Assembly (NCBI GenBank): GCA_045658525.1
Contig: JAZOVD010000041.1
Coordinates: 1-60,746 of the forward strand
From: Eubacteriales bacterium
GTDB lineage: Bacteria; Bacillota; Clostridia; Oscillospirales; CAG-272
Reading direction: 5' to 3'
Length of the DNA stretch: 60,746 nt
Shown: piece by piece, positions 7,330-45,993 of the stretch
Numbering within the stretch: position 1 is the stretch's first letter
Layout: each line of letters opens with the position of its first letter
Translations under genes and position numbers: made by a program
Notes under the pieces: generated by a model
Database searches by the model: none
The model's input: only the letters and a program-made list of their open reading frames with translations
Told to the model about the DNA's origin: nothing

Positions 7330-7358
7330 ATTATATCATTGCTTATTTGTTTTGTCAA
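7330..7358 (-). promoter_or_regulatory. Perfect-consensus sigma-A promoter for the acyl-CoA ligase / phosphoesterase / ribF unit
   Basis: The minus strand reads TTGACA (7358-7353), a 17-nt spacer, then TATAAT (7335-7330), about 55 nt upstream of the start at 7276. Confidence 0.7.
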
Positions 7359-18675: not shown

Positions 18676-19302
18676 ATGATAAATATTCTGTATTCGGATA
18701 AAAGCATTATAGTATGTGAAAAGCCGGCGGGCGTTCTTTCGCAGAACGACGCTAAGGGCGAAAAGGGACTCACTGAGCTTCTCGTACCGTATTCGGAAAC
18801 GGGACAGGTCTATCCTGTGCATAGGCTTGACAGACCCGTTGGCGGAGTTATGGTCTATGCCTGCGACAAGGAAAGCTGTGCTAAACTCTCGGCTGGATGC
18901 GCGATCGACAAAACGTATCTTACGCTTGTAAGCGGTTGTCCCGAGAGAGAAAAGGGTGAGCTTTTCGACTACATCTATAAGGACGGCGCGAAGAACAAAA
19001 GCTTTGTAGCTTCAAAGGAGCGTAAGGGTGTAAAGGACGCGCGTCTTTTGTACGAGGTCGTTGACAGAGACGAGGAGCGTGACGTTACGCTCGTTAAGGT
19101 CCGTCTGATAACGGGAAGAACGCATCAGATACGCGTTCAGTTCTCCTCGCGTGGAATGCCCGTCGTCGGTGACGGCAAATACGGTAGCCGCATAAAGGAC
19201 GAATTTATCGCTCTCTGGTCACACCGCATCTCGTTCGTTCACCCCAAAACAGGGGATATTGTGGAGTTTGATAGTTTTCCCTACTTTCTTGAAAGAAAGT
19301 AG
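18676..19302 (+). CDS. RluA-family pseudouridine synthase (short form)
   Basis: Motifs HRLDRPVGGVMVYA and GRTHQIRVQFS. The last 7 codons and the stop lie inside the repeat palindrome. Confidence 0.85.
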   Translation: MINILYSDKSIIVCEKPAGVLSQNDAKGEKGLTELLVPYSETGQVYPVHRLDRPVGGVMVYACDKESCAKLSAGCAIDKTYLTLVSGCPEREKGELFDYIYKDGAKNKSFVASKERKGVKDARLLYEVVDRDEERDVTLVKVRLITGRTHQIRVQFSSRGMPVVGDGKYGSRIKDEFIALWSHRISFVHPKTGDIVEFDSFPYFLERK

Positions 19303-19545
19303 GCAGAGAACTTCTCTCACACGCCACCGTGATACGATAGCGTGTGAGAGAAACATTTGATTATTTTGCTTCGCAAAAAGGCAAGAAAAACAATCAATAT
19401 TTCACTAAACCATATCTCTATGTGAACCCCTCGGAAGTGAAAAACTGTTCAAGGGTGAAGCAAGAGTTTGACTGTAAGTTTCTTTCTTTTTCTTTGCTTC
19501 GTTTCTTTTTCTTTCTTTACAAAGAAGGAAAAAGAAATGAAGAAA
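19280..19545 (+). repeat. Intergenic hairpin repeat, long form (core plus pyrimidine-rich module), upstream flank of argF
   Basis: CTACTTTCTTGAAAGAAAGTAG, CTTCTCTCACACGC..GCGTGTGAGAGAA, TTTTGCTTCGCAAAAAG, then TTTCTTTCTTTTTCTTTGCTTCGTTTC..ACAAAGAAGGAAAAAGAAA. Closely matches 20598-20885. Confidence 0.88.
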
Positions 19546-19568
19546 TAAATATTCAAGAGGTACAAAAA

Positions 19569-20564: not shown

Positions 20565-20590
20565 AAAAACGCCCCTTGGGGCGTTTTTTG
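20565..20590 (+). terminator. Rho-independent terminator of argF
   Basis: AAAAAACGCCCC-tt-GGGGCGTTTTTTG. Confidence 0.85.
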
Positions 20591-20597
20591 TTATCTA

Positions 20598-20885
20598 CCT
20601 ACTTTCTTGAAAGAAAGTAGGCAAAGAACTTTTCTCACACGCTACCGTGATACGATAGCGTGTGAGAAAAGTGTTTGTTAATTTGCTTCGCAAAAAGAAG
20701 AAAAAACATCAATATTCCACAAAACACCGTATTCCGATATTTCACTAAACCACATCTCTATGTGAACTCCTCGGAAGTGAAAACTGTTTACGGTGGCAAT
20801 AAAAGTACGACTGTAAGTTTCTTTCTTTTTCTTTGCTTCGTTTCTTTTTCTTTCTTTACAAAGAAGGAAAAAGAAACGAAGATAA
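20598..20885 (+). repeat. Intergenic hairpin repeat, long form, downstream flank of argF
   Basis: Same module order as 19280-19545, including an identical stem loop CCGTGATACGATAGC. Confidence 0.88.
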
Positions 20886-20996
20886 AAGGATAATGAAAAT
20901 AAATTATATTAAAAGAAATTCCGTTGTATCACAACTATAATAATCGGCATATTATGTAACGAATGGGAGAAAATTTCCCCGAAAGGAGCGTTTTAT

Positions 20997-22170: not shown

Positions 22171-22430
22171 TTCTCTTCTTTCTTGGAAATGAAAGTGATT
22201 GTCCTGCGGACAATTGCAAAGAACTTCTCTCACACGCCCACTTGGTATGAGCGTGTGAGAGAAAGCATTTGTTAATTTGCTTCGCAAAAAGTGGGAGAAA
22301 TCTCGCAAACGATAATGTTTACGTCATAAAAGCGTTTGAAGGGGACGGGATCCCCAAGGGGTGGGGAGGATCGCAACTCCCCGCCCTTGGGTCGTCCTTT
22401 GGTTACTTTCCCACGATCGGGAAAGTAACG
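22171..22430 (+). repeat. Intergenic hairpin repeat (variant core 22171-22292) followed by GC-rich hairpin modules
   Basis: CTTCTCTCACACGC..GCGTGTGAGAGAAAG, TTTGTTAATTTGCTTCGCAAAAAG, then GGGGACGGGATCCCC / GGGGAGG..CCCCGCCC / TTACTTTCCC..GGGAAAGTAA hairpins. Confidence 0.8.
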
Positions 22431-22451: not shown

Positions 22452-23063
22452 TTAAGGGTTGGTATTTGTAGTAGTATTAGGAGGTATCTTAGTTGCCTTC
22501 AACGCCTCGTAGAAATTAGCTCTCGCGACCTGATGGTACGGCTCTACGAATAAAACTCCTATTCCGAGGCAGAGTGCGCCGACTATATACCAACCTATAA
22601 AGCTGAGGTCGAGGCAGAAAAGCTGCCACTTGTGACCCTCCATCCAGCTGATGCTCTCGTTAAGGCAGAATTTCCAGTCCTTGTTGGGCTGATCCTGCTG
22701 AATGTAGGACGCCATAGCGTAGGAATAGGACTTGATTATTCCCGGTATGATAAACAGAAGTGACCAAAGAGCGGTGAACACAGCTTGAAGAAGTCCAAGC
22801 AGGAGCGTGTTGGTGAAATCCTCGGTAAATCCCTTAAAAAGGTCCGCTATATCTATTTTCGTTTTTCCGCATACGAGCTGAGTTGTAACTCTTGTAAGAC
22901 CGTATGCCATAGGTCCTACCAGAATTATTGATACTGTGCCGGCAAAATTCAGTATTGCTGAATTTACTATGCAGACGGCAAGCACCATAAGCCAAACGTT
23001 AGCGAAAATGTTTCCGCCGAGCTGAGTTCTCGCGTTGGTTCTTAAAACGTGATTTTCTACCAT
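22452..23063 (-). CDS. DUF975-family integral membrane protein
   Basis: 203 aa. N-terminus ARTQLGGNIFANVWLMVLAVCIVNSAI and multiple TM segments. Start lies 2 nt after the stop of the upstream gene. Confidence 0.65.
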   Translation of the reverse strand: MVENHVLRTNARTQLGGNIFANVWLMVLAVCIVNSAILNFAGTVSIILVGPMAYGLTRVTTQLVCGKTKIDIADLFKGFTEDFTNTLLLGLLQAVFTALWSLLFIIPGIIKSYSYAMASYIQQDQPNKDWKFCLNESISWMEGHKWQLFCLDLSFIGWYIVGALCLGIGVLFVEPYHQVARANFYEALKATKIPPNTTTNTNP

Positions 23064-23065
23064 AA

Positions 23066-24535
23066 TTATTCCCTTCTTTCTGTTAGCTTGAAGCCCTCGG
23101 CTTTGAGAAGCCTTACCTCGTCCTTTTTGAAAAGCTTTATCATTGCCATCATATGAGTTACAAATATATAGGTAACGTTTATTTTGGGCAGAATATCGAG
23201 TATAGCCTTCATTCCCTCCGCGCCCTCGCGGTAAGCGGTCGTCTGGAAGCTCTCGTTGAGCAGTACGAGCGAGTAGGGGGTAAGCTCATCTATTATTTTC
23301 GCTATGTCGATGACCTCGCCCTCAAAGCGTCCCGCGGCATCACCGACGGTGAAATCCTTTTCAGCTGACGAGAAATGCGTGAATATTCCGCTTCTTACGC
23401 TCAGGGTCATCTCGTCGGCGCAAACGAAAAGTCCGTTTTGCGCGAACAGCACCGCTAAGCCCACAGAACGCAAAAACGACGTTTTTCCGCAGTTGTTGTC
23501 ACCCATAGCCAGTATGCCGCGTTTGTCGCAGCTAAGGTCGTTGGTGATTATATTTTTTGAGTCCTTGCCCTCAGAAAGCAGAAGCAGGTCGTACATACCG
23601 CGAGCCTCAAAGCAAAGCTCCTCTTTTTCCTTTACCGTCGGGAAAACGTATCTCATACCTGCTTCCGTCAGCTTTTTGGCTATCTCACAGGCAACAGTGT
23701 AAAAGCGAAGCTCCTCGCCTATACCGTAGAAAACGGAATATATTCCGCAGGCTATGTCGGAAAACAGAGCGGAAAGCTCCGAAAGCGCGGCGTTTACGAC
23801 GGAAGCGGCGTTATCGGCGGCGGACGAGCCTACGTTTATTTCTTTTCGCGTGTTCTTTCGTTTGAAGATCGAGCGCAGAGACTTGTTTTCCTTTTGAGTG
23901 GTGTCGGTCATCTCGGAAACGGCAGAGCCGACTGCGCGCATTGCTTCGTTTAAAACGCAGTCAACGGTGAATACGTAGTTGTCGGGAGATTCGCTTCTGA
24001 AACGCTCAGCCGCCTTTTCGACCTCCTCGATACACTTGCTCTCTTTCATAGAAACGCAGAAGTCTTTCATTTTAAGTAAGCCCTCTGACGTGACCCCGAA
24101 CTCGGAAAACAGCTCGTGTGTCTCCGAAAAGCAAGCGATAACGCTACGGGCAAAGTGAGCGTTTATATATAATTCCTCGTAGGTGCAGTCAAGCATTCCC
24201 GCGTCGCCTGACGGAACTCCGTAACGGAATATCTCCTTTGTCATCTCATCGGTTTCCGAACGGAGATTGTCGTAGCTCCTGAAAAGCTGTGTAAGAGATG
24301 AAAGAAGCTTCGGAAATCGTATGAAATCCGCAAGTATCGCGCTTCTGTATGACGCGTCGTCGGGGGTGTCGGGTAATGCGGAGAGTACGGAGAGGAAGTA
24401 TTCCGTGCTCTTGCGGTCAGCGCAAGCGTTTTCCGCCATTCTGTCAACGTTAAGATCGTATATGGCTCTCGATACCGACGCTTTTTTTGTATGCGGTGTC
24501 GAGTTTTTATATATAAGACTTATTCTGTCCTGCAT
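23066..24535 (-). CDS. MutS-related ATPase, paralog B (domain V only; no mismatch-binding or Smr domain)
   Basis: Walker A GDNNCGKTSFLRSVG, LLNESFQTT in the Walker B position, and VTH. Start moved to MQDRISL (ATG 24535), which has an AAAGGAGAA RBS. Confidence 0.8.
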   Translation of the reverse strand: MQDRISLIYKNSTPHTKKASVSRAIYDLNVDRMAENACADRKSTEYFLSVLSALPDTPDDASYRSAILADFIRFPKLLSSLTQLFRSYDNLRSETDEMTKEIFRYGVPSGDAGMLDCTYEELYINAHFARSVIACFSETHELFSEFGVTSEGLLKMKDFCVSMKESKCIEEVEKAAERFRSESPDNYVFTVDCVLNEAMRAVGSAVSEMTDTTQKENKSLRSIFKRKNTRKEINVGSSAADNAASVVNAALSELSALFSDIACGIYSVFYGIGEELRFYTVACEIAKKLTEAGMRYVFPTVKEKEELCFEARGMYDLLLLSEGKDSKNIITNDLSCDKRGILAMGDNNCGKTSFLRSVGLAVLFAQNGLFVCADEMTLSVRSGIFTHFSSAEKDFTVGDAAGRFEGEVIDIAKIIDELTPYSLVLLNESFQTTAYREGAEGMKAILDILPKINVTYIFVTHMMAMIKLFKKDEVRLLKAEGFKLTERRE

Positions 24536-24557
24536 CCGTTTTCTCCTTTCGTTAAGA

Positions 24558-26003
24558 TCAGATTCCGAATCTGTCACTCAGCGCTTCCTTTGTAAGACCG
24601 TACTTTTCAAGAATGTCGGCAGCAAAGGATCTTGGCGGCAGACGGCGTTTTTCGATCCTGTAAGTGCGTTTGTTGCCGTCAAGAGCGTCGATGACGACAC
24701 CCAGAAACGGTATTTTGCTTTCTCCTACCTCGTGCTGGTGGGTTATATACAGACCGAAGCTTCCGCTTTTGTTGAGCTTATCGGCAAGCTCCGAGGTGTA
24801 TTCGAGTGCTTTTTCCTCGCCAGTGGTAGCATAAGTTTCGTTTAAAAGTATAAGCGAGCTTCCGTTTTCGCGTTCAAGTATCTTGTTTACACGCGCGATC
24901 TCGTCAAAAAATCTTCCCGAGCCTTCAAAACGCTCGTCTCTCGGGAAATGAGTGAATACCGAGTCGAATATATAACATTCTCCGCCGTCGCAAACCACAG
25001 GCGCGCCTGCCAAGAACAGCAGTACGGCACAGCCTACGGCACGGAGATAGGTGGTTTTTCCGCCTCCGTTAGCTCCCGTAAGATAGAAAAACGGGTTCTC
25101 TGTGTCGAACGTGACGTCGTTTGGAACTATGTTTTTACATTCCTTTGCCATAAGGGTAAAGTCGTAAACGTTTTTTAAGGCGATCTTTTTTTCTTTTGAC
25201 ACCTTTGGAAGCGAGAGCGGAAGCCCGTAGGACTTGACCTTTTGGCAAAATTCGAGTATTCCGCAGATAAATTCAAGCTCCTCTATATATTCAAAAACCT
25301 CTCCGTTTACGATAGTTCTGTTTTCGCGGTAGAACTCGCACGCAGGCTCGAATACCTCGGGCATAAGCTTTGCAAGAGCATCCGGAATGCTCGCGCGAAG
25401 CTCTATTTCCGTTTTGGGGTGCGACGTAAGCGGTATTCCAAGCTCGTCGGCACAGGCGTGGAGCGAGGTGGATATTCCGTTTTCAAGCGGAAGCGAGACC
25501 GTTATCTCGTCTCCCGTTACCTTTAACGAGATGCTTTTGACGCTTGAAAGCGCGTTCGTTATATCGCCCAGACCTTCGGAAGCCGCAATGAACCGAGGAC
25601 TTGATATTACCTCGGAAAAGGTCTCGGAAAAGCGTTTGAACAGCTTTCCGTAGCTTGGCAATGCGGCGGCTGAGCGGCAAAATTCCGAATAGTGCCTGAA
25701 AAGAGAGGAAAAAATGAACGCTTCCGCCTTTTCACCGCTTGCGCGGTTGAGCGCGCGGTAAAGGTCGCAGGCGGTTTTAAGTTCTTTTAAAAGAGCGGAG
25801 ACCGTCTGAAACGCTCCGTCGTCGGAGAGCATAGCCGAAAACATCTCGCTTCTCAAAGCGACTGTCTCCGCTTCCGGTCTGCAAAGAAGCATACGGCAGA
25901 CCTCGGGAGCGAGCACCAGCTCCAGCTTCAAGTCCTCCGCCAGAGTCTCGTCCATACATAATGGCGTTTTTTCTTTTGCGAAAATAAGCGGTAGATAGGT
26001 CAT
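24558..26003 (-). CDS. MutS-related ATPase, paralog A (domain V only)
   Basis: Walker A TGANGGGKTTYLRAVG, LLNETYATT and ITHQHE. 481 aa, compared with about 850 aa for canonical MutS. Confidence 0.8.
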   Translation of the reverse strand: MTYLPLIFAKEKTPLCMDETLAEDLKLELVLAPEVCRMLLCRPEAETVALRSEMFSAMLSDDGAFQTVSALLKELKTACDLYRALNRASGEKAEAFIFSSLFRHYSEFCRSAAALPSYGKLFKRFSETFSEVISSPRFIAASEGLGDITNALSSVKSISLKVTGDEITVSLPLENGISTSLHACADELGIPLTSHPKTEIELRASIPDALAKLMPEVFEPACEFYRENRTIVNGEVFEYIEELEFICGILEFCQKVKSYGLPLSLPKVSKEKKIALKNVYDFTLMAKECKNIVPNDVTFDTENPFFYLTGANGGGKTTYLRAVGCAVLLFLAGAPVVCDGGECYIFDSVFTHFPRDERFEGSGRFFDEIARVNKILERENGSSLILLNETYATTGEEKALEYTSELADKLNKSGSFGLYITHQHEVGESKIPFLGVVIDALDGNKRTYRIEKRRLPPRSFAADILEKYGLTKEALSDRFGI

Positions 26004-26027
26004 ATCTTTCCTTTCGATAAGTGGTTT

Positions 26028-27335
26028 TTAGTGCTTTTTTGAGAGGAACGCGAACAGGCTCTTTCCCTTATAGAGAGCGAATGCCTTGTACAGCTTGCCC
26101 GCGAGCATACTGATAAGAAACGCTGAAAGCGCGGTTATGATAAGCGACACGAGCGCGCCAAACGGGTTAATATCTCCGAGAAGCACCTTGCCGGGAACGG
26201 TGAGTATAGCGGTGAACGGTATATAATCAAGGAACGCGGGTGAGGTCTTTGCGCCGGTGTACAGGGGGGTGGTGAATATCGTTACGCAGAAGCTTATCGC
26301 AAGCACGAGGGCAAAGATCATGTTGTTTGAGGAAAGATCCTCCGCTTTTTCGGAGACCGCGCCGCCGACAGCAGCAAGTGAGCAGTAAAGAACGAATCCA
26401 ACGCAGGCAAACAGTATTGCAATGACGATGCCGTAGATCGAGAACATACCGCTCATTTCGCCTATCATATCAAAGAAGCGTATCAGTCCCATATCGGTAT
26501 CGGGAGAAAAGCCCTTTACTATTTGTATTCCGCTTACAAATCCAAGAGCGAGTGAGATCACCCATATAGCGAACTGCATAAGACCCGCAAGCGATATAGC
26601 GAGCATTTTTCCAAACACCATATCCGTTGGCTTTACCGACACAAGGAAAGTATCCATAAGCTTGGAGCTTTTTTCAACTATTACGCCCGTCGCTACGCCC
26701 TGACCGTAGAACGCCAGCATAAAGTACAGTACCATTATATAAATAAGCGGCAGCGCCATTGATATTATCTGTTTGGTAAGCTCAAGCGGGTCCTCCTCCG
26801 GTACCTGACCGTCGGGGATTATGACCTCGGTGGGTCTCATAAGCTCGACGAGCTGTTCGGGGGTAAGCCCTGATTTCAGGAGCAGGATAGTCCTCATATT
26901 AGCGTCTATGAACGCGGCAAGCGTGTCAGCGTCGTCCGAGGTCAGGGAAGAGCCGTTTGGCATAAGTATTTCGGCAAGATAACCCGTTTCGTCCTTGTCA
27001 AGGATCAATATCAGCGACTCGGGGTCGTTTTCAGAGCTTGCTTTTGCGCTTTCAAATGAGTCCTCGGTCTTGAAAACGACGTGAGAAAATTCACTCTGTG
27101 CGCAGATCAGCGAAAGATCGACCGCTTCACCGCCGGAAATATCGCAGAAAAAGACGGTCTTTACGTTATAGCTTTCGATCGGCTCTGAGTCTGATGACAC
27201 AGCCTCGACTATTGGAATTATCGCGGTCGGAGCGGCGAAAAAGATCAAGGCAAGTATCACGGTAAGCGCGATAAACCGTTTGCTTTTCGCGTACTGCCGA
27301 AAGGTGAACGCGAATATGTTTTTGAAATTTTTCAT
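26028..27335 (-). CDS. ABC-2 type (NatB-like) transporter permease
   Basis: 435 aa. One N-terminal TM segment, an extracytoplasmic domain of about 150 aa, then 5 C-terminal TM segments. ATGA overlap with the upstream gene. Confidence 0.7.
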   Translation of the reverse strand: MKNFKNIFAFTFRQYAKSKRFIALTVILALIFFAAPTAIIPIVEAVSSDSEPIESYNVKTVFFCDISGGEAVDLSLICAQSEFSHVVFKTEDSFESAKASSENDPESLILILDKDETGYLAEILMPNGSSLTSDDADTLAAFIDANMRTILLLKSGLTPEQLVELMRPTEVIIPDGQVPEEDPLELTKQIISMALPLIYIMVLYFMLAFYGQGVATGVIVEKSSKLMDTFLVSVKPTDMVFGKMLAISLAGLMQFAIWVISLALGFVSGIQIVKGFSPDTDMGLIRFFDMIGEMSGMFSIYGIVIAILFACVGFVLYCSLAAVGGAVSEKAEDLSSNNMIFALVLAISFCVTIFTTPLYTGAKTSPAFLDYIPFTAILTVPGKVLLGDINPFGALVSLIITALSAFLISMLAGKLYKAFALYKGKSLFAFLSKKH

Positions 27336-28561
27336 TTTGTTTCGTCCTTTCGGGGTAGCGTTACCGCTGTTTTGGGGGCTTGTGGAAAGCCTATGAGCTT
27401 TTTAAGCGTAGGCTCAACGCCGAGGAGCGCGCACGCCTCATCATATTCCTTAATAAGCGTGTCTGCGGTCTTATAACCCGCGCGGGTGCGTTTTATGGCG
27501 CGTATGAGCAGGTTTTTCGGTGTTTCCTCGGGATCGATAAGCTCGCAGACGGTTACTTTATAACCGTGTATTTCAAGCATTTTCGCGCGGAGCGCGTCTG
27601 TCGCCGCGGCGGCGAGCTTCTGCTTTATCATTGAATGCTCGGTCATAAATCCGAGCGCGGGGCTGTTCATTTCGCGGTTGAACTCGTGCTGACAGCAGGG
27701 AGTCGAAAGAATGACGCGCGCCTTTTGTCTTACCGCACCCGCAAGAACGTAATCGGTCGCGACGTCGCACGCGTGGAGTGAAAGCACCAGATCGGGGGGC
27801 GACGGCGGAGTAAATTTACTGACGTCACCGCACTCGAAGTGCATACCGTTCCAGCCGAGCTTTTCGGCAATGGAAGCGCAGTATTCTATTACGTCGGGTT
27901 TGAGATCTATCCCGTACATCGTTGTTTGGCGTTTGAGCACCTCGGTGAAGTACCAATATGCGGCGAACGTAAGGTAGCTTTTTCCGCAACAGAGGTCGCA
28001 TACAGTGAGCGCGCCTTTTTGGGGAAGCTCAGAGGCTACCGTTTCTATCTGTTCGAGAAATTTATTTATTTGGCGGTATTTTGCCTGCTTTTTATCGTGT
28101 ATTGTGCCGTTTTTGGAGCATATACCGAGCTTTTCAAGAAAACCTCCGTCGTTTTCGGGGGTCAGAATGTAGTTTTTTACCTTGTCCTGCTGAGACGGGA
28201 TCGTTTCTGTGGGCATAGCTCCGACAAGTGTTCCCGAAAAATGCGCCTTACCCTTTGACGATACCATTATTACCGCGCTTTTTCCGTTTGCGATAAGATC
28301 GGTCTGCATAAAATCGCTTCCCGTTTTTTCGCATATAAAAGCCACAGCGTCCTTGTAAGGAAGTACCGTTTGCAGAGCTTTTCCGTCCTTTTTAAACGTT
28401 TCAAGCTTCAAAAACAGCTCCCCGTCCTTTGAAAACGCGGTCGCTACGGTCTTTATCACGCTTTTGTCCTTTGGCTTTGAAAGAACGGCTTTTTTAAGCG
28501 CGCCTGATATAAGTGAATCCGTCAGTTCTTTTTCGAGGCGTGACGCTATACTTGCTTCCAA
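27332..28561 (-). CDS. Class I SAM-dependent methyltransferase (about 400 aa, Methyltransf_32-like)
   Basis: Motif I VCDLCCGKSYLT, plus LHACDVATD. TTG start with an AAAGGAG RBS 10 nt upstream. Confidence 0.7.
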   Translation of the reverse strand: MEASIASRLEKELTDSLISGALKKAVLSKPKDKSVIKTVATAFSKDGELFLKLETFKKDGKALQTVLPYKDAVAFICEKTGSDFMQTDLIANGKSAVIMVSSKGKAHFSGTLVGAMPTETIPSQQDKVKNYILTPENDGGFLEKLGICSKNGTIHDKKQAKYRQINKFLEQIETVASELPQKGALTVCDLCCGKSYLTFAAYWYFTEVLKRQTTMYGIDLKPDVIEYCASIAEKLGWNGMHFECGDVSKFTPPSPPDLVLSLHACDVATDYVLAGAVRQKARVILSTPCCQHEFNREMNSPALGFMTEHSMIKQKLAAAATDALRAKMLEIHGYKVTVCELIDPEETPKNLLIRAIKRTRAGYKTADTLIKEYDEACALLGVEPTLKKLIGFPQAPKTAVTLPRKDETK

Positions 28562-28602: not shown

Positions 28603-28631
28603 ATTATATAACGATTTTCGGTATATGTCAA
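28603..28631 (-). promoter_or_regulatory. Perfect-consensus sigma-A promoter of the methyltransferase-to-DUF975 operon
   Basis: The minus strand reads TTGACA (28631-28626), a 17-nt spacer, then TATAAT (28608-28603), about 40 nt upstream of the TTG start. Confidence 0.7.
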
Positions 28632-28710
28632 GGCATTAAACGTAAAAAACGCGGCACAGTAGCGTTTGAAGCCACCGCGCCGCGCGCACTGAGGACAGAT
28701 ACCGCAGATA

Positions 28711-28827
28711 TTAGTCGCAACCGCATCCGTTTCCACAGCCACAACCGTTGCAGCTGAGGAGAATAAGAGCGATTATTATTATCCAAAGGCACTTGTTATC
28801 CTCGAAGAAATTGCAAAAGCATCCCAT
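28711..28827 (-). CDS. 38-aa cysteine-rich small membrane peptide
   Basis: MGCFCNFFEDNKCLWIIIIALILLSCNGCGCGNGCGCD. RBS GGAAGGAGGA. A GC-rich stem plus TTTTTT follows at 28644-28690. It falls below the ORF-track size cut-off. Confidence 0.6.
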   Translation of the reverse strand: MGCFCNFFEDNKCLWIIIIALILLSCNGCGCGNGCGCD

Positions 28828-37188: not shown

Positions 37189-37497
37189 ATGGCAAGCGAA
37201 AAAATCAGAGTGAGACTCAAAAGCTACGATCACGCTCTCGTAGATGCCGCGGCCGCTAAGATAGTGGACGTTGCAAAGAGAAACGGCGCAGCAGTTTCCG
37301 GACCTATCCCGCTCCCCACCGAGAAGGAAGTGGTCACGATACTCAGAGCGGTCCATAAGTATAAGGACAGCCGTGAGCAGTTCGAGCTTAGAACTCACAA
37401 GAGACTCATCGACATTCTCAATCCCGGTCAGAAGGTCGCGGATGCACTTATGAATGTTGAGCTTCCCGCAGGTGTAGAGATCGACGTAAAGCTCTGA
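37189..37497 (+). CDS. rpsJ: 30S ribosomal protein S10
   Basis: [19 protein letters not shown]... First gene of the conserved S10 operon order. Confidence 0.97.
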
Positions 37498-37592
37498 TCT
37501 AAGCACAGGCAAACAGACCCGATAGCGTTTTATGTCAAGTTGGCGGACAAAAGATGCGTCAACCAATAACAAAAACAGGAGGAAATCAAAAA

Positions 37593-38222
37593 ATGATCAA
37601 AGGCATTATCGGAAAGAAAATCGGAATGACACAGATTTTCGACGAGGTCGGAAACGTTATTCCCGTAACGGTCATCGAGGCAGGTCCCTGTGTGGTCGCT
37701 CAGAAGAAGACCGTTGAAACGGACGGCTACGACGCCGTTCAGCTCGGATTTATAGATACACCCGAGAAAAGAGTAAGCAAACCCGAAGCAGGTCACTTCA
37801 AGAAGAACGGTCTTACCGTGAAGCGTCACCTCAAGGAGTTCCGTCTGGATGATATATCCGGTCTTAATGTAGGCGATACCGTTGCCGCCGATATCTTTAC
37901 GGCAGGCGAAAAGGTCGATGTAACCGGAATAACAAAAGGACATGGATACACAGGTGTCGTTAAGAGATGGAATCACCACGTTCTCAGAATGACCCACGGT
38001 ACCGGTCCTATACACCGTCAGGTCGGATCTCAGGGTTCGATAGACCCCGCAAGAGTCTTCAAGAACATGAAGATGCCGGGTCAGTACGGAAACGAGCAGG
38101 TAACGATCCTTAATCTGGACGTTGTCAAGGTAGATGCGGAGAAGAACCTCATTGCGATAAAGGGCGCGGTCCCGGGCGCAAAGGGCGGCATAGTATTCAT
38201 CCGTGATAGCGTCAAAGCGTAA
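37593..38222 (+). CDS. rplC: 50S ribosomal protein L3
   Basis: [16 protein letters not shown]... GGAGG RBS. Confidence 0.97.
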
Positions 38223-38242
38223 GCGGAAGGAGGAGAAACACA

Positions 38243-38872
38243 ATGGCTAACATTAAAGTTGTAGATATGACCGGAAAAGAAGTCGGCTCGATAGAGCTTT
38301 CCGACAAGATTTACGGCATAGAAGAAATAAACAGTGCTGTCCTCCACGCATCTGTAAGAGCGTATCTGCTCAACCAGAGACAGGGCACACAGTCGGCTCT
38401 TACCCGTTCCGAGGTATCGGGCGGAGGAAAGAAGCCTTGGAGACAGAAGGGAACCGGACGCGCAAGACAGGGTTCCACCCGTTCGCCTCAGTGGACGCAC
38501 GGCGGAATCGTTTTCGCTCCGAAGCCGCGTGAATACAGAGTTGCGATGAACCGCAAGACCAAGAGAGTTGCTCTTTACAATGCGCTTTCTTCTAAGTTCG
38601 CGGCAAACGAGATAGTCGTAGTTAACGAGATAAAGACCGAGAGCTACAAGACCAAGACCATGGTCGAGATGCTTAACGCCATCGGCGCGGGCAAGAAGGC
38701 ACTTGTAGTACTCGATACCGTAGATCCTATGGTAATAAAGAGCTTTGCCAACATCCCCGGTGTAAAGACCGTTCAGGCAAATCAGCTCAGCGTATATGAC
38801 GTTCTCAACTGCAACACGTTCGTAATGACGCAGGCTGCATCATCCATAATTGAGGAGGTGTACGGCAAATGA
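38243..38872 (+). CDS. rplD: 50S ribosomal protein L4
   Basis: KPWRQKGTGRARQGSTRSPQW motif; operon position. Confidence 0.97.
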   Translation: MANIKVVDMTGKEVGSIELSDKIYGIEEINSAVLHASVRAYLLNQRQGTQSALTRSEVSGGGKKPWRQKGTGRARQGSTRSPQWTHGGIVFAPKPREYRVAMNRKTKRVALYNALSSKFAANEIVVVNEIKTESYKTKTMVEMLNAIGAGKKALVVLDTVDPMVIKSFANIPGVKTVQANQLSVYDVLNCNTFVMTQAASSIIEEVYGK

Positions 38873-39162
38873 AAACAGTATACGATATAATCATCAGACC
38901 GATAATCACGGAAGCGAGCATGGATATGACCGCCGACAAGAAGTACGTCTTTGAAGTAAGAAAGGACGCAACTAAGCCGGAGATCGCTGACGCAGTCGAG
39001 AAGATGTTCAAAGTTAAGGTGGCATATGTAAACACCGTATCCATGAAGAAGAAGCCGAAGCGCCTTGGCGTTCACGAGGGCTACACTTCCGCATGGAAGA
39101 AAGCAATAGTACAGCTCACAGAGGATTCTGAGACGATCGAATTCTTTGAGGGTATGAGATAA
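38869..39162 (+). CDS. rplW: 50S ribosomal protein L23
   Basis: MKTVYDIIIRPIITEAS... ATGA overlap with rplD. Confidence 0.96.
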   Translation: MKTVYDIIIRPIITEASMDMTADKKYVFEVRKDATKPEIADAVEKMFKVKVAYVNTVSMKKKPKRLGVHEGYTSAWKKAIVQLTEDSETIEFFEGMR

Positions 39163-39182
39163 GTTAAAGGAGGAGTAAAACA

Positions 39183-40016
39183 ATGGCAACAAAGAAGTAT
39201 AATCCTACGTCGCCTGCAAGAAGACATATGTCTGTGCCCTCCTTCGACGAGGTCACTAAGTCGGTTCCCGAGAAATCTCTCCTGACCGTACTTAAAAAGA
39301 ATGCGGGACGTAACAGCTACGGACGTATAACTGTACGTCATCAGGGCGGCGGTAACAAGAAGAAGTACAGACTTGTCGATTTCCGCCGTAACCGCGACGA
39401 TATGCCTGCTAAGGTCCTCGGTATAGAGTACGACCCCAACAGAACCGCATACATCGCGCTTATTCAGTATGAAGACGGAGTAAAGAGCTACATTCTTGCT
39501 CCTACCGGACTTACCGACGGCGATACGGTCTATACCGGAAGCGCTTCCGATATAAAGCCCGGAAACACTATGGAAATATCTGCTATTCCGGTAGGTACTT
39601 TCATCCACAACATCGAGATATATCCCGGTAAGGGCGGACAGCTCGTTCGTTCCGCGGGAGCCGCCGCTCAGCTTATGGCTAAGGAGAACGGTATGGCTCA
39701 GGTAAGACTTCCCTCCGGTGAAGTTCGCCTCATAAGACTCGATTGCAAAGCAACGATAGGTACAGTCAGCAATATCGAACACGACACAGTCAAGATCGGT
39801 AAGGCAGGTAAGAAGCGTCACATGGGTATCCGCCCGACCGTACGCGGATCTGTCATGAACCCCTGCGACCACCCGCACGGTGGTGGTGAGGGTAAATCAC
39901 CTGTCGGACGTCCTTCTCCGGTAACTCCTTGGGGCAAGCCCGCGCTTGGATACAAGACGCGTAATAAGAAGGCTAGAACCAATAAGTTCATCGTGAAGAG
40001 CCGTCACGCTAATTAA
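39183..40016 (+). CDS. rplB: 50S ribosomal protein L2
   Basis: [16 protein letters not shown]... and [11 protein letters not shown]. Confidence 0.98.
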
Positions 40017-40033
40017 TTCAGGAGGACACTAAA

Positions 40034-40315
40034 ATGAGCAGAAGCTGTAAAAAAGCCCCGTTCGTTGAGGTTAAGCTCTATAACCGTATAGTAGCTATGA
40101 ACGAAGCGAACGACAAAAAGGTAATAAAGACCTGGTCCAGAGCCTCCACCATTTTCCCGGAGTTCGTTGGTCATACCATAGCGGTACATGACGGAAGAAA
40201 GCACGTTCCGGTATATGTAACAGAGGATATGGTCGGACACAAGCTCGGAGAATTCGCACCTACCCGTACCTTTAAAGGTCACGCCGGTTCCAAGACGTCT
40301 AACAACGGTAAGTAA
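40034..40315 (+). CDS. rpsS: 30S ribosomal protein S19
   Basis: [16 protein letters not shown] motif. Confidence 0.97.
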
Positions 40316-40388
40316 TAGCCGTTGTTAAGACAAGCCGGATCAAATAAAAATACGGAGCGTTTAAACGTCCCGGAAGGAGGCACCTGAA

Positions 40389-40760
40389 ATGGAAGCTAAT
40401 AGAGAAGCAAAAGCGATACTGAAATATGCAAGAATTTCTCCTCGCAAGGTTAAGATAGTTCTCGACCTCATCAGAGGTAAGGACGCTGACATGGCGATGG
40501 CGATTCTTAAAAATACACACAAATCCGCATCGGAATACCTTATAAAGCTGCTTAAAAGCGCTGTTGCAAACGCAGAGAACAACTTTGAAATGGACGCAAG
40601 CAAGCTTTACGTATCCGAGTGCTACGTATGTCCCGGCCCGACACTCAAAAGAATGATGCCGAGAGCAAAGGGAAGCGCAAACCGCATTTTAAAGAGAACA
40701 AGCCACGTAACGATTGCCGTAAAAGAGAGAACGAGCGGCAATGCGGTTGCGGCTGAGTAA
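40389..40760 (+). CDS. rplV: 50S ribosomal protein L22
   Basis: [25 protein letters not shown]. Confidence 0.96.
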
Positions 40761-40777
40761 AAGAGGAGGCTAAAAGA

Positions 40778-41641
40778 ATGGGTCAGAAAGTTAATCCCCA
40801 CGGCCTTCGTGTTGGCGTCATTAAAGACTGGGATTCGAGATGGTTCGAGAAGGACGAAAGCTTCGGTGACACCCTCGTATCCGACTATAAGATAAGAACC
40901 TTCCTTAAAAAGAAGCTTCAGGACGCCGGAGTACCGAAGATCGAGATAGAGCGCGATAGCGCAAGAATCAGAGTATTCATTCACTGCGCCAAGCCCGGTA
41001 TAATCATCGGACAGGGCGGAGCGGCAATAGAAAAGCTCAAAGCCGAGATCGAGAAGATGGTCGGCGGCGAGAAGGCTGTGTTCGTAAACGTAGTCGAGGT
41101 AAAGAGCCCCGACCTCAACGCACAGCTCGTAGCTGAGAACATCGCAGCTAAGCTTGAAGGCAGAATCGCTTTCAGACGTGCGATGAAGATGGCAATATCC
41201 AGAACCATGCACCTCGGAGCAAAGGGAATCAAGATTTCCTGTGCGGGACGTCTCGCGGGAGCTGAAATAGCTCGTACCGAGCACTACCACGAGGGAACCA
41301 TACCGCTTCAGACCCTCAGAGCTGATATAGATTACGGCTTCTGGGAGGCTAACACCACCTACGGTAAGATCGGTGTTAAGGTATGGATATACAAGGGAGA
41401 GGTCCTCTCCGCCGGAAACGGTGCGAAGAGAACCGTAGAAAACGCCGATAAGAAGGATCGCAGAGGCGACCGCAGAGGCGACCGTAGAGACCGCAGAAAC
41501 GGAGACCGCAGAGAAGGCGGTTTCAACAAGGGTAACGGCGGACGTCGCTTCGACCGTAACGACAACAAGCCTCGCTACGGAACCGACGGCAGACGCGCTC
41601 CGGTAGCAACAGCTCCGGTTGCGCCCAAGAAGGAGGGCTGA
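40778..41641 (+). CDS. rpsC: 30S ribosomal protein S3 (with an Arg/Asp/Gly-rich C-terminal extension of about 70 aa)
   Basis: [23 protein letters not shown]... Tail [22 protein letters not shown]. Confidence 0.97.
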
Positions 41642-41646
41642 GCACC

Positions 41647-42072
41647 ATGTTGATGCCTAAGAGAACAAAATACAGACGTGTTCACCGCGGAAGATTAAAG
41701 GGAAAAGCAATGCGCGGTAACACATTGAGCTACGGAAACTTCGGACTCGTAGCTTGCGATCCCGCATGGATCACGAGCAACCAGATAGAGGCTGCCCGTA
41801 TAGCGATGACCAGATACATTCGCCGTGGCGGACAGGTCTGGATCAAGATATTCCCCGACAAGCCGATCACCGAGAAGCCGGCTGAGACCCGAATGGGTTC
41901 CGGTAAGGGTTCTGTTGACCACTGGGTAGCGGTAGTAAAGCCGGGAAGAGTGCTGTTCGAAATGGACGGCGTAAGCGAAGAGATCGCTCGCGAAGCTATG
42001 CGTCTTGCAATGCACAAGCTTCCGATAAAGTGCAAATTTATAGCAAAAGAACAGACGAAAGAGGAGGAATAA
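41647..42072 (+). CDS. rplP: 50S ribosomal protein L16
   Basis: [21 protein letters not shown]... Confidence 0.97.
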
Positions 42073-42075
42073 GCA

Positions 42076-42267
42076 ATGAAGGCATCAGAGATAAGAGCAA
42101 TGTCGGAATCCGATCTTCAGAAGAAGCTTACGGAGCTTAAAGATGAGCTGTTCCACCTCCGTTTCCAGCTTGCTATAAACCAGCTCGACAACCCTCACAA
42201 GATAACCGACGTAAAGCGTGACATCGCTCGCGTACTCACGGTCATCAACGAGGGAAAGAACGCGTAA
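42076..42267 (+). CDS. rpmC: 50S ribosomal protein L29
   Basis: LTELKDELFHLRFQLAINQLDNPHKI. Confidence 0.96.
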   Translation: MKASEIRAMSESDLQKKLTELKDELFHLRFQLAINQLDNPHKITDVKRDIARVLTVINEGKNA

Positions 42268-42285
42268 GACAGGAGGATAACGAAG

Positions 42286-42543
42286 ATGGAAGAAAGAAAT
42301 CTCAGAAAAACCAGAGTCGGACGCGTTGTCAGCGCAAAGATGGATAAGACCATAGTAGTAGCGATAGAGGACAGCGTAAAGCATCCGAAGTACGGCAAGG
42401 TTATGCACCGTACACTTAAAGTACACGCTCACGACGAGACAAACACCGCGGGTGTGGACGACAAGGTAATGATAATGGAAACAAGACCTCTTTCCAAGAC
42501 AAAGAGATGGCGTCTTGTAGAAATAATCGAGAAGGCAAAATAA
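42286..42543 (+). CDS. rpsQ: 30S ribosomal protein S17
   Basis: [22 protein letters not shown]... and [12 protein letters not shown]. Confidence 0.96.
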
Positions 42544-42604
42544 TATCACCGCAAGACAGGCGGACGATACGTCAAAATGCGTATAAAAGAGGAGGTAACC
42601 GCAA

Positions 42605-42973
42605 GTGTTACAGCAGCAGTCATATATGAAAGTTGCCGATAATACGGGTGCAAAAGAACTTATGTGCATTCGTGTACTCGGCGGAACAGGCAGACGCTAC
42701 GGAAACATAGGCGACATAGTAGTAGCCTGCGTAAAGAAAGCGGCTCCCGGCGGAACGGTCAAGAAGGGTGATGTTGTTAAGGCAGTCATCGTAAGATCTG
42801 TTCGTGGGATGAGACGCGCAGACGGCTCGTATATAAAGTTCGACGAGAACGCGGCCGTAATAATAAAAGAAGATAAGACCCCCAGAGGAACCCGTATATT
42901 CGGTCCTGTGGCAAGAGAGCTCCGTGAAAAGGATTTCACAAAGATCCTTTCGCTCGCTCCCGAAGTTCTTTAA
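42605..42973 (+). CDS. rplN: 50S ribosomal protein L14 (GTG start)
   Basis: (M)[26 protein letters not shown]... Confidence 0.97.
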
Positions 42974-42989
42974 GGAGGTACCGGTTTAA

Positions 42990-43340
42990 ATGAATACACT
43001 TCATGTAAAGAAGGGCGATACCGTCATAGTTCTTTCCGGTGACAAGAAGCGTCACCTTAAAGGAGAGATCGGCGAAGTCCTCGAGGTATCCCCGAAGGAA
43101 AGAAAGGTTATCGTTAAGGGCGTTAACCTTGTAAAGAAGCATGTAAAACCCCGCAAGCAGGGCGACCAGGGCGGCATACTTACCGTCGAGGGCGCAATAT
43201 ATGCGGATAAGGTTGCACTGTACTGCCCCGATTGTAAGAAGGGCGTACGCTACCATACCGAGATGATCGACGACAAGAAGGTCCGTGTTTGCTCCGGCAA
43301 GAAGGAAGACGGAACTCCTTGCGGTCACAAGTTTGACTAA
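42990..43340 (+). CDS. rplX: 50S ribosomal protein L24 (variant with four Cys residues in the C-terminal half)
   Basis: [17 protein letters not shown] (KOW motif); operon position. Confidence 0.95.
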
Positions 43341-43354
43341 GGAGGTATCGAGCA

Positions 43355-43897
43355 ATGGCAAGACTTAAAGATCTTTATAAGAACGAAGTAGCACCCGCTC
43401 TTATGACAAAGTACAACTACAAGAGCGTAATGCAGATACCTAAGCTTGATAAGGTGGTTGTCAACGTCGGAACCGGCGGAGAAGAGAGAGACAACGCTAA
43501 GGTTATGGAAGCCATCGTAGGCGACCTCACCGCTATCACCGGACAGAAGGCAGTAGTAAACAAGGCAAAGAAGTCCGTTGCTAACTTCAAGCTCAGAGCC
43601 GGTATGGCAATCGGAGGAAAAGTAACCCTCCGTGGAGAGATCATGTACGAGTTCATCGACAGACTCTTCAATATAGCCCTTCCCAGAGTACGTGACTTTA
43701 AGGGAATAAACCCCAATGCCTTCGACGGCAGAGGAAACTATTCTCTCGGACTCAAAGAGCAGCTCATATTCCCCGAGATAGAGTATGAGAAGGTTGACCG
43801 CGTACGCGGAATGGACATCGCATTCGTAACGACGGCAAACACGGACGAGGAAGCAAAAGAGCTTCTTACGCTCCTCGGCGCGCCGTTCGCGAAATAA
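43355..43897 (+). CDS. rplE: 50S ribosomal protein L5
   Basis: [39 protein letters not shown]. Confidence 0.97.
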
Positions 43898-43913
43898 AAG
43901 GAGGTAAATTGCA

Positions 43914-44099: not shown

Positions 44100-44134
44100 T
44101 GCGAAAGCAAGAAGGACAGAAGGAGGATTAAGAA

Positions 44135-44530: not shown

Positions 44531-44548
44531 AACGGGAGGATTAAGGAA

Positions 44549-45088: not shown

Positions 45089-45104
45089 TTAGGAGGGTAG
45101 GCAA

Positions 45105-45464: not shown

Positions 45465-45479
45465 GGAGGAGCAAAGATA

Positions 45480-45980: not shown

Positions 45981-45993
45981 GGAGGTACTGCAA

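What the first reader, a model, noticed from the sequence alone, without database searches (positions are those of the whole stretch)
22452..28561. Tightly coupled five-gene operon combining a methyltransferase, an orphan ABC-2 permease, two truncated MutS-like ATPases and a DUF975 membrane protein
All five genes are on the minus strand downstream of a perfect TTGACA-17-TATAAT promoter (28603-28631). Junctions are a 4-nt ATGA overlap (27332-27335), then gaps of 24 nt, 22 nt and 2 nt, so co-transcription and translational coupling are likely. The combination is unusual. MutS-domain-V proteins are normally linked to DNA transactions, yet here a tandem pair sits between two polytopic membrane proteins. 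The NatB-like permease has no canonical ABC nucleotide-binding gene beside it. The MutS ATPase domain belongs to the ABC-ATPase superfamily. One speculative reading is that the two paralogs form a heterodimeric ATPase working with the membrane components. Another is a membrane-associated nucleic-acid surveillance or defence module that includes the methyltransferase. I know of no characterised system with this composition.
Basis: partly seen in the sequence, partly recalled or inferred. Interest (0 to 1): 0.75.

Follow-up and report, generated by a model that had tools for sequence, protein, structure and literature searches.

The report
Recent operon around a MutS-like pair
The five genes really do form one tight operon, but only the two MutS-like ATPase genes travel together across related bacteria, so this is an uncharacterised two-subunit MutS-family ATPase with three unrelated passenger genes rather than a new five-part membrane or defence system.

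Summary
Five minus-strand genes (Methyltransf_32 methyltransferase, ABC-2 permease, two MutS-domain-V proteins, DUF975) sit behind a perfect TTGACA-17-TATAAT promoter, with junctions of -4, 24, 22 and 2 nt. No ABC ATPase gene lies anywhere in the 60.7-kb window.

- In 86 related loci, MutS-B directly follows MutS-A in 81 of 83 informative cases, and 45 of those have a 4- or 1-nt overlap.
- The methyltransferase is adjacent in only 11 loci, all in one clade. The permease is adjacent in 5 and DUF975 in 2.
- None of 52 informative metagenomic loci of methyltransferase orthologues has a MutS-like neighbour.
- Permease homologues elsewhere sit in canonical ATPase-permease-permease operons.
- Neighbours are housekeeping genes. 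There is no PADLOC signal and no copy on viral contigs.

The conserved unit is a pair of full-length paralogues. Each has lever/clamp and ATPase domains, and neither has a mismatch-binding, connector or nuclease domain. Both keep Walker A and the trans signature motif, and both carry Asn in place of the Walker B Asp. This is most likely an obligate heterodimeric MutS-type clamp ATPase. It resembles the uncharacterised MutS4A/B pairs; its substrate is unknown.

The parts
28603..28631 (-). Perfect sigma-70-type promoter TTGACA-17-TATAAT that drives the operon
   Evidence: It matches 12 of 12 positions. There are 2 such sites in the window against 0 expected. The hexamers are perfectly conserved in 11 of 11 related loci while the spacer and flanks diverge.
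27332..28561 (-). Class I SAM-dependent methyltransferase (Methyltransf_32), 409 aa, TTG start after an AGGAG ribosome-binding site. It is the first gene of the operon.
   Evidence: PF13679 scores 124.9 bits. It has no relative of solved structure by sequence. Orthologues elsewhere are stand-alone, with 0 of 52 next to MutS-like genes. It lies beside the MutS pair in only one clade.
26028..27335 (-). Orphan ABC-2 (ABC2_membrane_3) permease, 435 aa. Its start overlaps the methyltransferase stop by 4 nt.
   Evidence: PF12698 scores 84.7 bits. There is no ABC ATPase gene in the window. Homologues at about 40% identity are the second permease of ATPase-permease-permease operons. Orthologues lie beside the MutS pair in only 5 of 86 loci.
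24558..26003 (-). MutS-like subunit A, 481 aa: lever/small-clamp region, domain V ATPase and a C-terminal helix-turn-helix (residues about 460-479, DNA 24564-24626)
   Evidence: PF00488 scores 53.9 bits. The AlphaFold2 model has pLDDT 85.7. The best Foldseek matches are MSH2, MutS and MutS2 at E about 1e-16. At least 1377 clusters (50% identity) match at E<=1e-30.
25050..25076 (-). Walker A of subunit A (GANGGGKTT)
   Evidence: These residues are invariant in 35 and 84 homologues. The translation was checked.
24837..24842 (-). Walker B of subunit A, reading N388-E389, with Asn in place of the canonical Asp
   Evidence: N388 is invariant. It aligns with MSH2 D748, and E389 aligns with E749. The translation was checked.
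23066..24535 (-). MutS-like subunit B, 489 aa: the same lever/clamp plus ATPase architecture, with a basic disordered loop at the clamp tip (residues about 213-229) and no C-terminal helix-turn-helix
   Evidence: PF00488 scores 63.8 bits. The AlphaFold2 model has pLDDT 85.8. Foldseek matches MSH2 and the MutS2 core. hhalign against the A family gives probability 99.9 over 447 columns at 20% identity.
23480..23503 (-). Walker A of subunit B (GDNNCGKT)
   Evidence: G-K-T is invariant across the family. The translation was checked.
23252..23257 (-). Walker B of subunit B, reading N427-E428, again Asn instead of Asp
   Evidence: Both residues are invariant in 38 homologues. The translation was checked.
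22452..23063 (-). DUF975 polytopic membrane protein, 203 aa, the last gene, starting 2 nt after the MutS-B stop
   Evidence: PF06161 scores 112 bits. It lies beside the pair only in L001 and L007.
22224..22264 (-). Terminator-like hairpin (18-bp stem plus T-rich tail) downstream of the operon. It is part of a repeated intergenic element.
   Evidence: A second perfect hairpin lies at 22403-22428.
28649..28685 (-). Terminator of the upstream small Cys-rich ORF, which insulates the operon promoter from read-through
   Evidence: It has a 15-bp stem with 10 G-C pairs followed by a T-run.

Best explanation
This locus is a lineage-specific operon assembled around one conserved functional unit: a translationally linked gene pair encoding two paralogous MutS-family proteins, A and B.

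A and B most likely form an obligate heterodimeric clamp ATPase of the MutS2/MutS4 type. Each has lever/clamp and ABC-type ATPase domains. Neither has a mismatch-binding, connector or nuclease domain.

Proposed mechanism for the pair:
1. The ATPase domains dimerise head-to-head. Each subunit supplies its 'GRF..E' signature motif to the partner's Walker A site.
2. Only A contributes a C-terminal helix-turn-helix to the interface.
3. ATP binding closes or opens the levers around a bulky substrate, most probably branched or duplex nucleic acid. Turnover is probably slow, because both Walker B aspartates are replaced by asparagine.
4. The pair therefore acts as a sensor or remodeller whose effector is encoded elsewhere.

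The other three genes are functionally independent. The methyltransferase is a stand-alone housekeeping gene. The permease is a relic second permease of an ABC-2 exporter whose ATPase is encoded elsewhere. DUF975 is a membrane protein. All three came to share the strong promoter through local gene packing.

Shown here: the operon anatomy, the conservation pattern, the folds and the motifs. Inferred: heterodimer formation, the ATP-switch behaviour, a nucleic-acid substrate and the independence of the passenger genes.
For: Anatomy.

A-B linkage:
- B follows A in 81 of 83 informative loci from distinct species. 37 have 4-nt overlaps and 8 have 1-nt overlaps.
- A natural fusion of two such modules exists (P0384).
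- A and B are full-length paralogues.

Folds: the models have pLDDT 85.7 and 85.8, and the best matches are MSH2, MutS and the MutS2 core at E of 1e-14 to 1e-16.

Motifs: Walker A, the N-E Walker B, the GRF..E signature and the TH motif are invariant in both families. N388 aligns with MSH2 D748.

No third partner: no neighbour family is present in more than 16 of 87 loci. Neighbours are housekeeping genes such as dnaG, rpoD, a YqeG-like HAD phosphatase, Band_7, a YlmH-like protein and BipA.

Passenger genes:
- The methyltransferase is adjacent in 11 of 86 loci, all in one clade. The permease is adjacent in 5 and DUF975 in 2.
- 0 of 52 methyltransferase orthologue loci have a MutS-like neighbour.
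- Permease homologues sit in canonical ABC operons.

No defence or mobile-element signal.

Against: - Within the window's clade, the perfect promoter and the order methyltransferase ... A-B are conserved down to about 46-50% protein identity. Stand-alone methyltransferase orthologues almost never have such a promoter (1 of 66). A clade-specific functional link between the methyltransferase and the pair therefore cannot be excluded.
- The orphan permease is intact and retained in two subclades.
- The heterodimer was not modelled or measured.
- Both proteins are acidic overall, with only short basic patches, so nucleic-acid binding is not demonstrated.
- MutS-family ATPases can act on ribosomes (MutS2, PMC10897456). 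One is annotated by NCBIfam as an enzyme reactivase (KamC model name).
Confidence: 0.72

Rival explanations
1. Clade-specific three-part module. In the window's clade the Methyltransf_32 enzyme works with the A/B heterodimer, for example by marking the substrate that the clamp reads. The slot between the two is free to take up cargo genes.
For: A perfect promoter followed by methyltransferase ... A-B is conserved in 12 of 12 clade members, including the window, despite about 50% protein divergence. The gap between the methyltransferase gene and A is often only about 25 nt. Stand-alone methyltransferase orthologues lack the perfect promoter (1 of 66).
Against: 69+ loci have the pair and no methyltransferase within 10 kb. 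0 of 52 methyltransferase loci elsewhere have a MutS neighbour. All adjacency maps to one clade on the tree, so shared descent explains it. I saw no (D/N/S)PP(Y/F/W) DNA amino-methyltransferase motif when reading the sequence. The only PADLOC hit is a generic methyltransferase-domain match.
Confidence: 0.13
2. The A/B heterodimer acts on ribosomes or RNA, like MutS2 in ribosome-collision rescue, rather than on DNA.
For: The MutS2 core is among the best structural matches, including the B. subtilis MutS2-disome complex 7qv3. A YlmH-like gene (PF17774) lies immediately downstream on the same strand in 6-8 loci. YlmH takes part in ribosome-associated quality control together with MutS2 and RqcH (PMC11317155). 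Other neighbours include mini-RNase III, RlmA-like methyltransferases and BipA.
Against: MutS2 is recruited to collided ribosomes by its KOW and SMR domains (PMC10897456). A and B have no such domains. The translation-related neighbours are each confined to a few related loci. The dnaG, recG and holA contexts argue equally for DNA.
Confidence: 0.15
3. One reading: the MutS-like pair is the ATPase motor of the orphan ABC-2 permease, possibly with DUF975, forming a new kind of membrane machine.
For: The genes are packed tightly in one operon and there is no ABC ATPase gene within 60.7 kb. The orphan permease is retained beside the pair in two subclades.
Against: More than 90% of loci have the pair and no permease. 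Lineages lying between the two permease-bearing subclades have lost it yet kept the pair. The permease family uses canonical ABC_tran/DrrA ATPases. Both MutS-like models show lever/clamp architecture and no membrane-facing element.
Confidence: 0.03
4. One reading: a membrane-associated nucleic-acid surveillance or anti-phage defence module that includes the methyltransferase.
For: A weak PADLOC mad2 hit to the methyltransferase domain (1.2e-10) and marginal P-loop hits.
Against: No complete PADLOC system is present. Of 140 flanking genes, the only recurrent 'defence' hit is the MzaA model matching housekeeping RpoD. The window is core chromosome: BipA, ornithine carbamoyltransferase, and the S10-spc ribosomal operon 9 kb away. 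There are no relatives on viral contigs. The pair behaves as a vertically inherited housekeeping gene pair in a large group of Clostridia.
Confidence: 0.03
5. The pair is an enzyme reactivase or chaperone, analogous to the protein that NCBIfam names KamC (lysine 5,6-aminomutase reactivase ATPase), and has no nucleic-acid role.
For: Both proteins hit NF052383 KamC as strongly as they hit MutS models (64 bits). KamC is of similar length (508 positions) and its ATPase domain is in the same position.
Against: The scores are far below the KamC cut-off of 300. No aminomutase or other recurring enzyme gene lies beside the pair in 87 loci.
Confidence: 0.04

Closest known systems
MutS4A/MutS4B adjacent gene pairs (Lin, Nei and Ma 2007, PMC2190696)
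   Same: Two paralogous MutS genes carrying only the C-terminal ATPase-type region, always adjacent, with the stop of the first overlapping the start of the second. They were reported in a Clostridia-class thermophile and a few other prokaryotes, and their function is unstudied. The family here shows the same layout in 45 of 81 loci.
   Different: Sequence-level orthology with the published MutS4 genes could not be tested because no sequences were available. In the window itself the two genes are separated by 22 nt rather than overlapping. The family here is large (at least 1377 clusters at 50% identity), whereas MutS4 was reported in five bacteria and two archaea.
Bacterial MutS2 core (T. thermophilus 7vuf/7vuk; B. 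subtilis 7qv3)
   Same: It lacks domains I and II and has core/lever/clamp plus ATPase plus helix-turn-helix. Subunit A aligns to MutS2 almost to its C-terminus.
   Different: MutS2 is a homodimer with C-terminal KOW and Smr domains that confer nuclease activity or ribosome recruitment. A and B have neither, form a two-gene pair, and score 44-55 bits against a cut-off of 400 for TIGR01069.
Eukaryotic MSH heterodimers (MSH2-MSH6, MSH2-MSH3, MSH4-MSH5)
   Same: They are obligate heterodimers of diverged MutS paralogues with asymmetric ATP sites. MSH2 is the best sequence and structure match.
   Different: A and B have no mismatch-binding or connector domains. The Walker B Asp is replaced by Asn in both subunits. 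Only one subunit has the C-terminal helix-turn-helix.
DrrAB/NatAB-type ABC-2 exporters
   Same: The permease belongs to PF12698, and its homologues at about 40% identity sit in ATPase-permease-permease operons.
   Different: Here there is a single permease gene with no ATPase gene nearby.
KamC (NCBIfam NF052383, lysine 5,6-aminomutase reactivase ATPase)
   Same: It is about 500 aa, with a MutS-V-type ATPase in the C-terminal half.
   Different: The score of 64 bits is far below the cut-off of 300, and there is no aminomutase context.

Membership tests
MutS family (PF00488 domain V ATPase) | Domain V ABC-type ATPase scoring above the Pfam gathering threshold, with Walker A and the TH motif | tested here: met
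   The scores are 53.9 and 63.8 bits against a cut-off of 30.2. The motifs are invariant.
MutS1 (mismatch repair MutS) | N-terminal mismatch-binding domain I and connector domain II; NCBIfam equivalog score | tested here: not met
   There are no domain I or II hits. The scores are 60-64 bits against a cut-off of 480 for NF003810. In the models the lever region begins at the N-terminus.
MutS2 / RqcU | C-terminal KOW and Smr domains; homodimer; TIGR01069 equivalog score | tested here: not met
   There is no Smr or KOW hit, and the proteins end at or just after domain V. The scores are 44-55 bits against a cut-off of 400.
MutS4A/MutS4B | Two adjacent paralogous genes, stop and start overlapping, carrying only the MutSac-type region | tested here: met
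   The genes are adjacent in 81 of 83 loci, and 45 have 4- or 1-nt overlaps. The window itself has a 22-nt gap. Only MutS_V is detected.
MutS4A/MutS4B | Phylogenetic grouping with the published MutS4A and MutS4B sequences (T. tengcongensis, Thermoplasma) | not testable with these tools
   No reference sequences could be retrieved. The paper's supplement is not held.
ABC-2 exporter (ATPase + permease) | ABC2-type permease | tested here: met
   PF12698 scores 84.7 bits against a cut-off of 31.6.
ABC-2 exporter (ATPase + permease) | Cognate ABC_tran ATPase gene in the same operon | tested here: not met
   None is present in the 60.7 kb. It is present beside homologues in L087-L089.
Known anti-phage defence systems (PADLOC-DB v2) | Significant matches to the component proteins of a system, and a defence-island context | tested here: not met
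   The only hits are a match to mad2 confined to the methyltransferase domain (1e-10) and marginal P-loop hits. The neighbours give no real defence hits. There are no viral copies.
KamC reactivase | NF052383 equivalog score and a lysine aminomutase gene context | tested here: not met
   The score is 64 bits against a cut-off of 300. No such neighbours are present.
   All five are present only in L001 and L007. Adjacency counts across 86 loci are 11 for the methyltransferase, 5 for the permease and 2 for DUF975.

The most novel reading that the evidence does not exclude
In the window's subclade, the orphan ABC-2 permease (with or without DUF975) has lost its canonical ATPase and been captured by the MutS-like A/B heterodimer. 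This would be a membrane-coupled machine driven by a MutS-type rather than a transporter-type ABC ATPase. The evidence excludes this as a general property of the A/B family. It does not strictly exclude it for the few lineages that keep methyltransferase-permease-A-B under the conserved perfect promoter.

A less radical reading is also open, at roughly 0.35 probability. On that reading the A/B pair is a housekeeping MutS-type heterodimer of Oscillospiraceae-like Clostridia with a role distinct from both mismatch repair and MutS2-type rescue.
Probability: 0.03. Interest if true: 0.85.

Novelty: new member of a known kind. Interest (0 to 1): 0.3.

Why it matters
As a five-gene system it does not matter, because the composition is an accident of operon packing in one lineage. 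It should not seed a new "membrane MutS" or defence category.

What remains of value is the A/B pair:
- It is a large family: at least 1377 clusters at 50% identity, found in more than 200 species-level genomes of gut, rumen and digester Clostridia.
- It is entirely uncharacterised.
- It has an unusual, invariant Asn in place of the Walker B Asp in both subunits, and an asymmetric dimerisation element.

MutS paralogues have repeatedly turned out to do unexpected things, such as MutS2 on collided ribosomes. A cleanly delimited two-gene module with a strong conserved promoter is therefore a tractable target for biochemistry.

Tried and rejected
- Defence hypothesis: rejected. I ran PADLOC on the five proteins and on 140 immediate neighbours. 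The recurrent MzaA hit proved to be housekeeping RpoD.
- Phage or mobile origin: rejected. There are no relatives on viral contigs.
- RNA elements: none. Rfam over the whole window gave no hit.
- Search for a conserved third partner: clustering of all ORFs within 6 kb of the pair in 87 loci found none.
- Methyltransferase-side synteny: 80 metagenomic loci showed no MutS neighbour. Their neighbours are PlsY, an rRNA methyltransferase and the S10 operon.
- Membership in MutS4: attempted through the literature, but no sequences were obtainable and Ogata et al. 2011 is not held.
- Naming through cluster members: all are unnamed or 'hypothetical'.
- Literature searches for a characterised tandem MutS-V pair or for KamC found nothing relevant.
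- Charge analysis of the clamp regions: only short basic patches, so no firm call on the substrate.
- Solved-structure search for the methyltransferase: no hits.


Full report
**1. Observation**

The window carries five consecutive minus-strand ORFs:
- 27332-28561 (409 aa)
- 26028-27335 (435 aa)
- 24558-26003 (481 aa)
- 23066-24535 (489 aa from the ATG preceded by AGGAG; a GTG at 24577 is an alternative start)
- 22452-23063 (203 aa)

The junctions are a 4-nt ATGA overlap and gaps of 24, 22 and 2 nt. Pfam assigns Methyltransf_32, ABC2_membrane_3, MutS_V, MutS_V and DUF975, all above the curated cut-offs.

TTGACA-17-TATAAT lies at 28631-28603. The exact pattern occurs twice in the window and never in 100 shuffles. 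A strong terminator of an upstream small ORF (28685-28649) precedes it. Hairpins follow the last gene.

No ABC nucleotide-binding gene exists anywhere in the 60.7 kb.

**2. Is the five-gene set a system?**

I collected contexts of MutS-A homologues at 78-35% identity. Six came from the look-up of encoding contigs. Eighty came from species-representative genomes, all of them uncultured Clostridia, Oscillospiraceae or Eubacteriales MAGs; 203 genomes matched in total. Local phmmer searches on six-frame ORFs gave a clear picture.
- MutS-B follows MutS-A in 81 of 83 loci that have room for it. Of these, 37 have 4-nt overlaps and 8 have 1-nt overlaps.
- The methyltransferase is adjacent in 11 loci.
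- The permease is adjacent in 5 loci (L001, L007, L011, L012, L016).
- DUF975 is adjacent in 2 loci (L001, L007).

On a neighbour-joining tree of concatenated A+B, all methyltransferase adjacencies fall in one clade. The permease occupies two subclades of that clade, and lineages between them have lost it. DUF975 is found only in the terminal subclade that holds the window. The slot between the methyltransferase gene and A is variable. It holds the permease, a Peptidase_M18 gene (L002), or nothing (L003, L004, L009, L010).

Clustering of all neighbours within 6 kb found no family in more than 16 of 87 loci. The recurrent neighbours are housekeeping genes:
- dGTPase-dnaG-rpoD
- YqeG-like HAD phosphatase
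- RlmA-like methyltransferase
- Band_7
- P-type ATPase
- YlmH-like protein
- BipA

**3. The passenger genes**

*Methyltransferase.* Eighty metagenomic loci encode orthologues at 33-48% identity. Fifty-two have at least 1.5 kb of downstream sequence, and none has a MutS-like gene. Their neighbours are PlsY, an rRNA methyltransferase and the S10 operon.

*Permease.* Homologues at about 40% identity (Marvinbryantia, Lacrimispora and others) are always the second of two ABC2_membrane_3 genes that follow an ABC_tran plus DrrA1-3_C ATPase gene. A canonical ATPase partner therefore exists for this family. The copy in the window looks like a displaced second permease.

**4. Defence or mobile element?**

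- PADLOC on the five proteins gives only a match to mad2 confined to the methyltransferase domain, plus marginal P-loop hits.
- Among 140 immediate neighbours, the only recurrent 'defence' hit is the MzaA model. It matches housekeeping sigma-70 RpoD.
- No relatives occur on viral contigs.
- The window is core chromosome. It holds BipA, ornithine carbamoyltransferase and, 9 kb away, the S10-spc ribosomal operon and secY.

**5. One point in favour of a local link**

The perfect 12/12 promoter upstream of the methyltransferase gene is conserved in all 11 related loci that have the methyltransferase beside the pair, while the spacer and flanks have diverged. Stand-alone methyltransferase orthologues almost never have such a promoter (1 of 66). 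Pairs without the methyltransferase tend to have their own 10-11/12 promoter (23 of 69, against about 7% of random windows).

Within this clade, then, methyltransferase ... A-B is a stably co-transcribed unit under a selected strong promoter. This may reflect a functional link. It may equally be plain operon packing: recently formed operons often join unrelated genes that were already near each other (PMC1480536). I give the functional link about 0.13.

**6. What the conserved pair is**

A and B are full-length paralogues (hhalign probability 99.9 over 447 columns at 20% identity). The AlphaFold2 models are confident (pLDDT 85.7 and 85.8). Each shows, in order:
- long lever helices;
- a small beta-hairpin clamp-like insert (A residues about 156-204, B about 181-236);
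- the ATPase domain.

Foldseek's best matches are MSH2, bacterial MutS and the MutS2 core (T. thermophilus 7vuf/7vuk, B. subtilis 7qv3), at E of 1e-14 to 1e-16. There is no domain I, domain II, Smr, KOW or other nuclease domain. NCBIfam scores are far below the cut-offs for MutS1, MutS2 and KamC.

Both families keep Walker A, the trans-acting 'GRF..E' signature and the TH motif. Both have an invariant Asn where the Walker B Asp normally sits. A's N388 aligns with MSH2 D748. From my own recollection of the E. coli MutS D693N work, this position coordinates Mg2+, and the substitution alters the ATP switch. A structure of that mutant is in the PDB (3k0s, listed).

The two subunits differ in two ways:
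- A has a C-terminal helix-turn-helix that aligns with the one in MutS2. B ends without it.
- B carries a conserved basic, disordered loop at the clamp tip. A has a basic stretch just before its helix-turn-helix.

A natural fusion of two such modules exists (P0384, 1106 aa). It lies between comEC and rpsT-holA, in a stretch that also carries topA, recG and radC upstream.

The A profile retrieves 1377 clusters (50% identity) at E<=1e-30, almost all about 480 aa long. Source names are 'hypothetical protein', 'MutS-related protein' or 'DNA mismatch repair ATPase MutS'.

**7. Mechanism**

The best-supported reading is an obligate A/B heterodimeric MutS-type clamp ATPase. The evidence for a heterodimer is strict 1:1 adjacency, translational coupling, conserved trans motifs in both subunits and the existence of a fused relative.

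By analogy with MutS2 and MSH4-MSH5, the missing domains I and II leave a wide channel suited to branched DNA. Fukui et al. 2022, as quoted in PMC12292046, describe this for MutS2. The Asn-for-Asp Walker B suggests slow turnover and long-lived nucleotide states, which would make the pair a sensor or remodeller rather than a motor.

The substrate is not established. DNA is favoured by family precedent and by the dnaG, recG and holA contexts. A role on ribosomes or RNA is a live alternative, because MutS2 splits collided ribosomes (PMC10897456) and YlmH-like genes follow the pair in 6-8 loci (PMC11317155). However, A and B lack the KOW and SMR recruitment domains.

**8. Comparison with what is known**

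The closest named precedent is MutS4A/MutS4B. These are adjacent, overlapping, ATPase-region-only MutS paralogues found in Thermoanaerobacter tengcongensis, a few other bacteria and Thermoplasma, and their function is unknown (PMC2190696). The gene-organisation criterion is met here. Sequence-level membership could not be tested. A recent review confirms that prokaryotic MutS subfamilies lacking domains I and II remain largely uncharacterised (PMC12292046).

**9. Verdict**

The five-gene "system" is a lineage-specific operon, not a conserved machine. The conserved entity is a two-gene MutS-like heterodimer, which is a new, well-delimited member of a known but unstudied kind.

Interest is 0.3. 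It is low for the proposed system. It is moderate for the A/B family because of its size, its invariant Walker B Asn and its asymmetric subunits.

Noticed in passing
window 19276-19560, 20590-20890, 22216-22291: A hairpin-rich repeated intergenic element of about 270 nt. Two copies at 88-96% identity flank the ornithine carbamoyltransferase gene, and a partial third copy lies just downstream of the DUF975 gene and supplies the terminator-like hairpin. Rfam has no match.
   Followed up: partly
window 28711-28827 (-): A small Cys-rich ORF of 38 aa (MGCFCNFFEDNKCLWIIIIALILLSCNGCGCGNGCGCD). It has a strong ribosome-binding site and its own terminator (28649-28685), and lies between BipA and the operon promoter.
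   Followed up: no
L001, L002, L003, L004, L007, L009-L012, L015, L016: upstream of the methyltransferase gene: The perfect TTGACA-17-TATAAT promoter is conserved 12/12 in every locus of the clade, although the spacer and flanks have diverged. Stand-alone methyltransferase orthologues lack it (1 of 66).
   Followed up: yes
L170 8001-11321 (protein P0384): A natural fusion of two MutS lever+ATPase modules in one 1106-aa protein. Both halves have the Asn-Glu Walker B and are equally distant from the A and B families. The gene lies between comEC and rpsT-holA.
   Followed up: partly
L019, L031, L033, L038, L045-L047, L049: immediately downstream of MutS-B: A YlmH-like S4/RNA-binding gene (PF17774) follows the pair on the same strand. 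In overlapping sets of loci, dGTPase-dnaG-rpoD lies immediately upstream.
   Followed up: partly
PADLOC model PDLC02203 (MzaA) against L033 4452-5729: The PADLOC MzaA model matches housekeeping sigma-70 RpoD at E=2e-69. This is a source of false defence calls.
   Followed up: yes
window 7330-7358 (-): A second perfect TTGACA-17-TATAAT site, upstream of the minus-strand ORF 5624-7276.
   Followed up: no
window 37189-47934 (+): The S10-spc ribosomal protein operon followed by secY. This explains the strong A-over-T skew of that region and shows that the window is core chromosome.
   Followed up: partly
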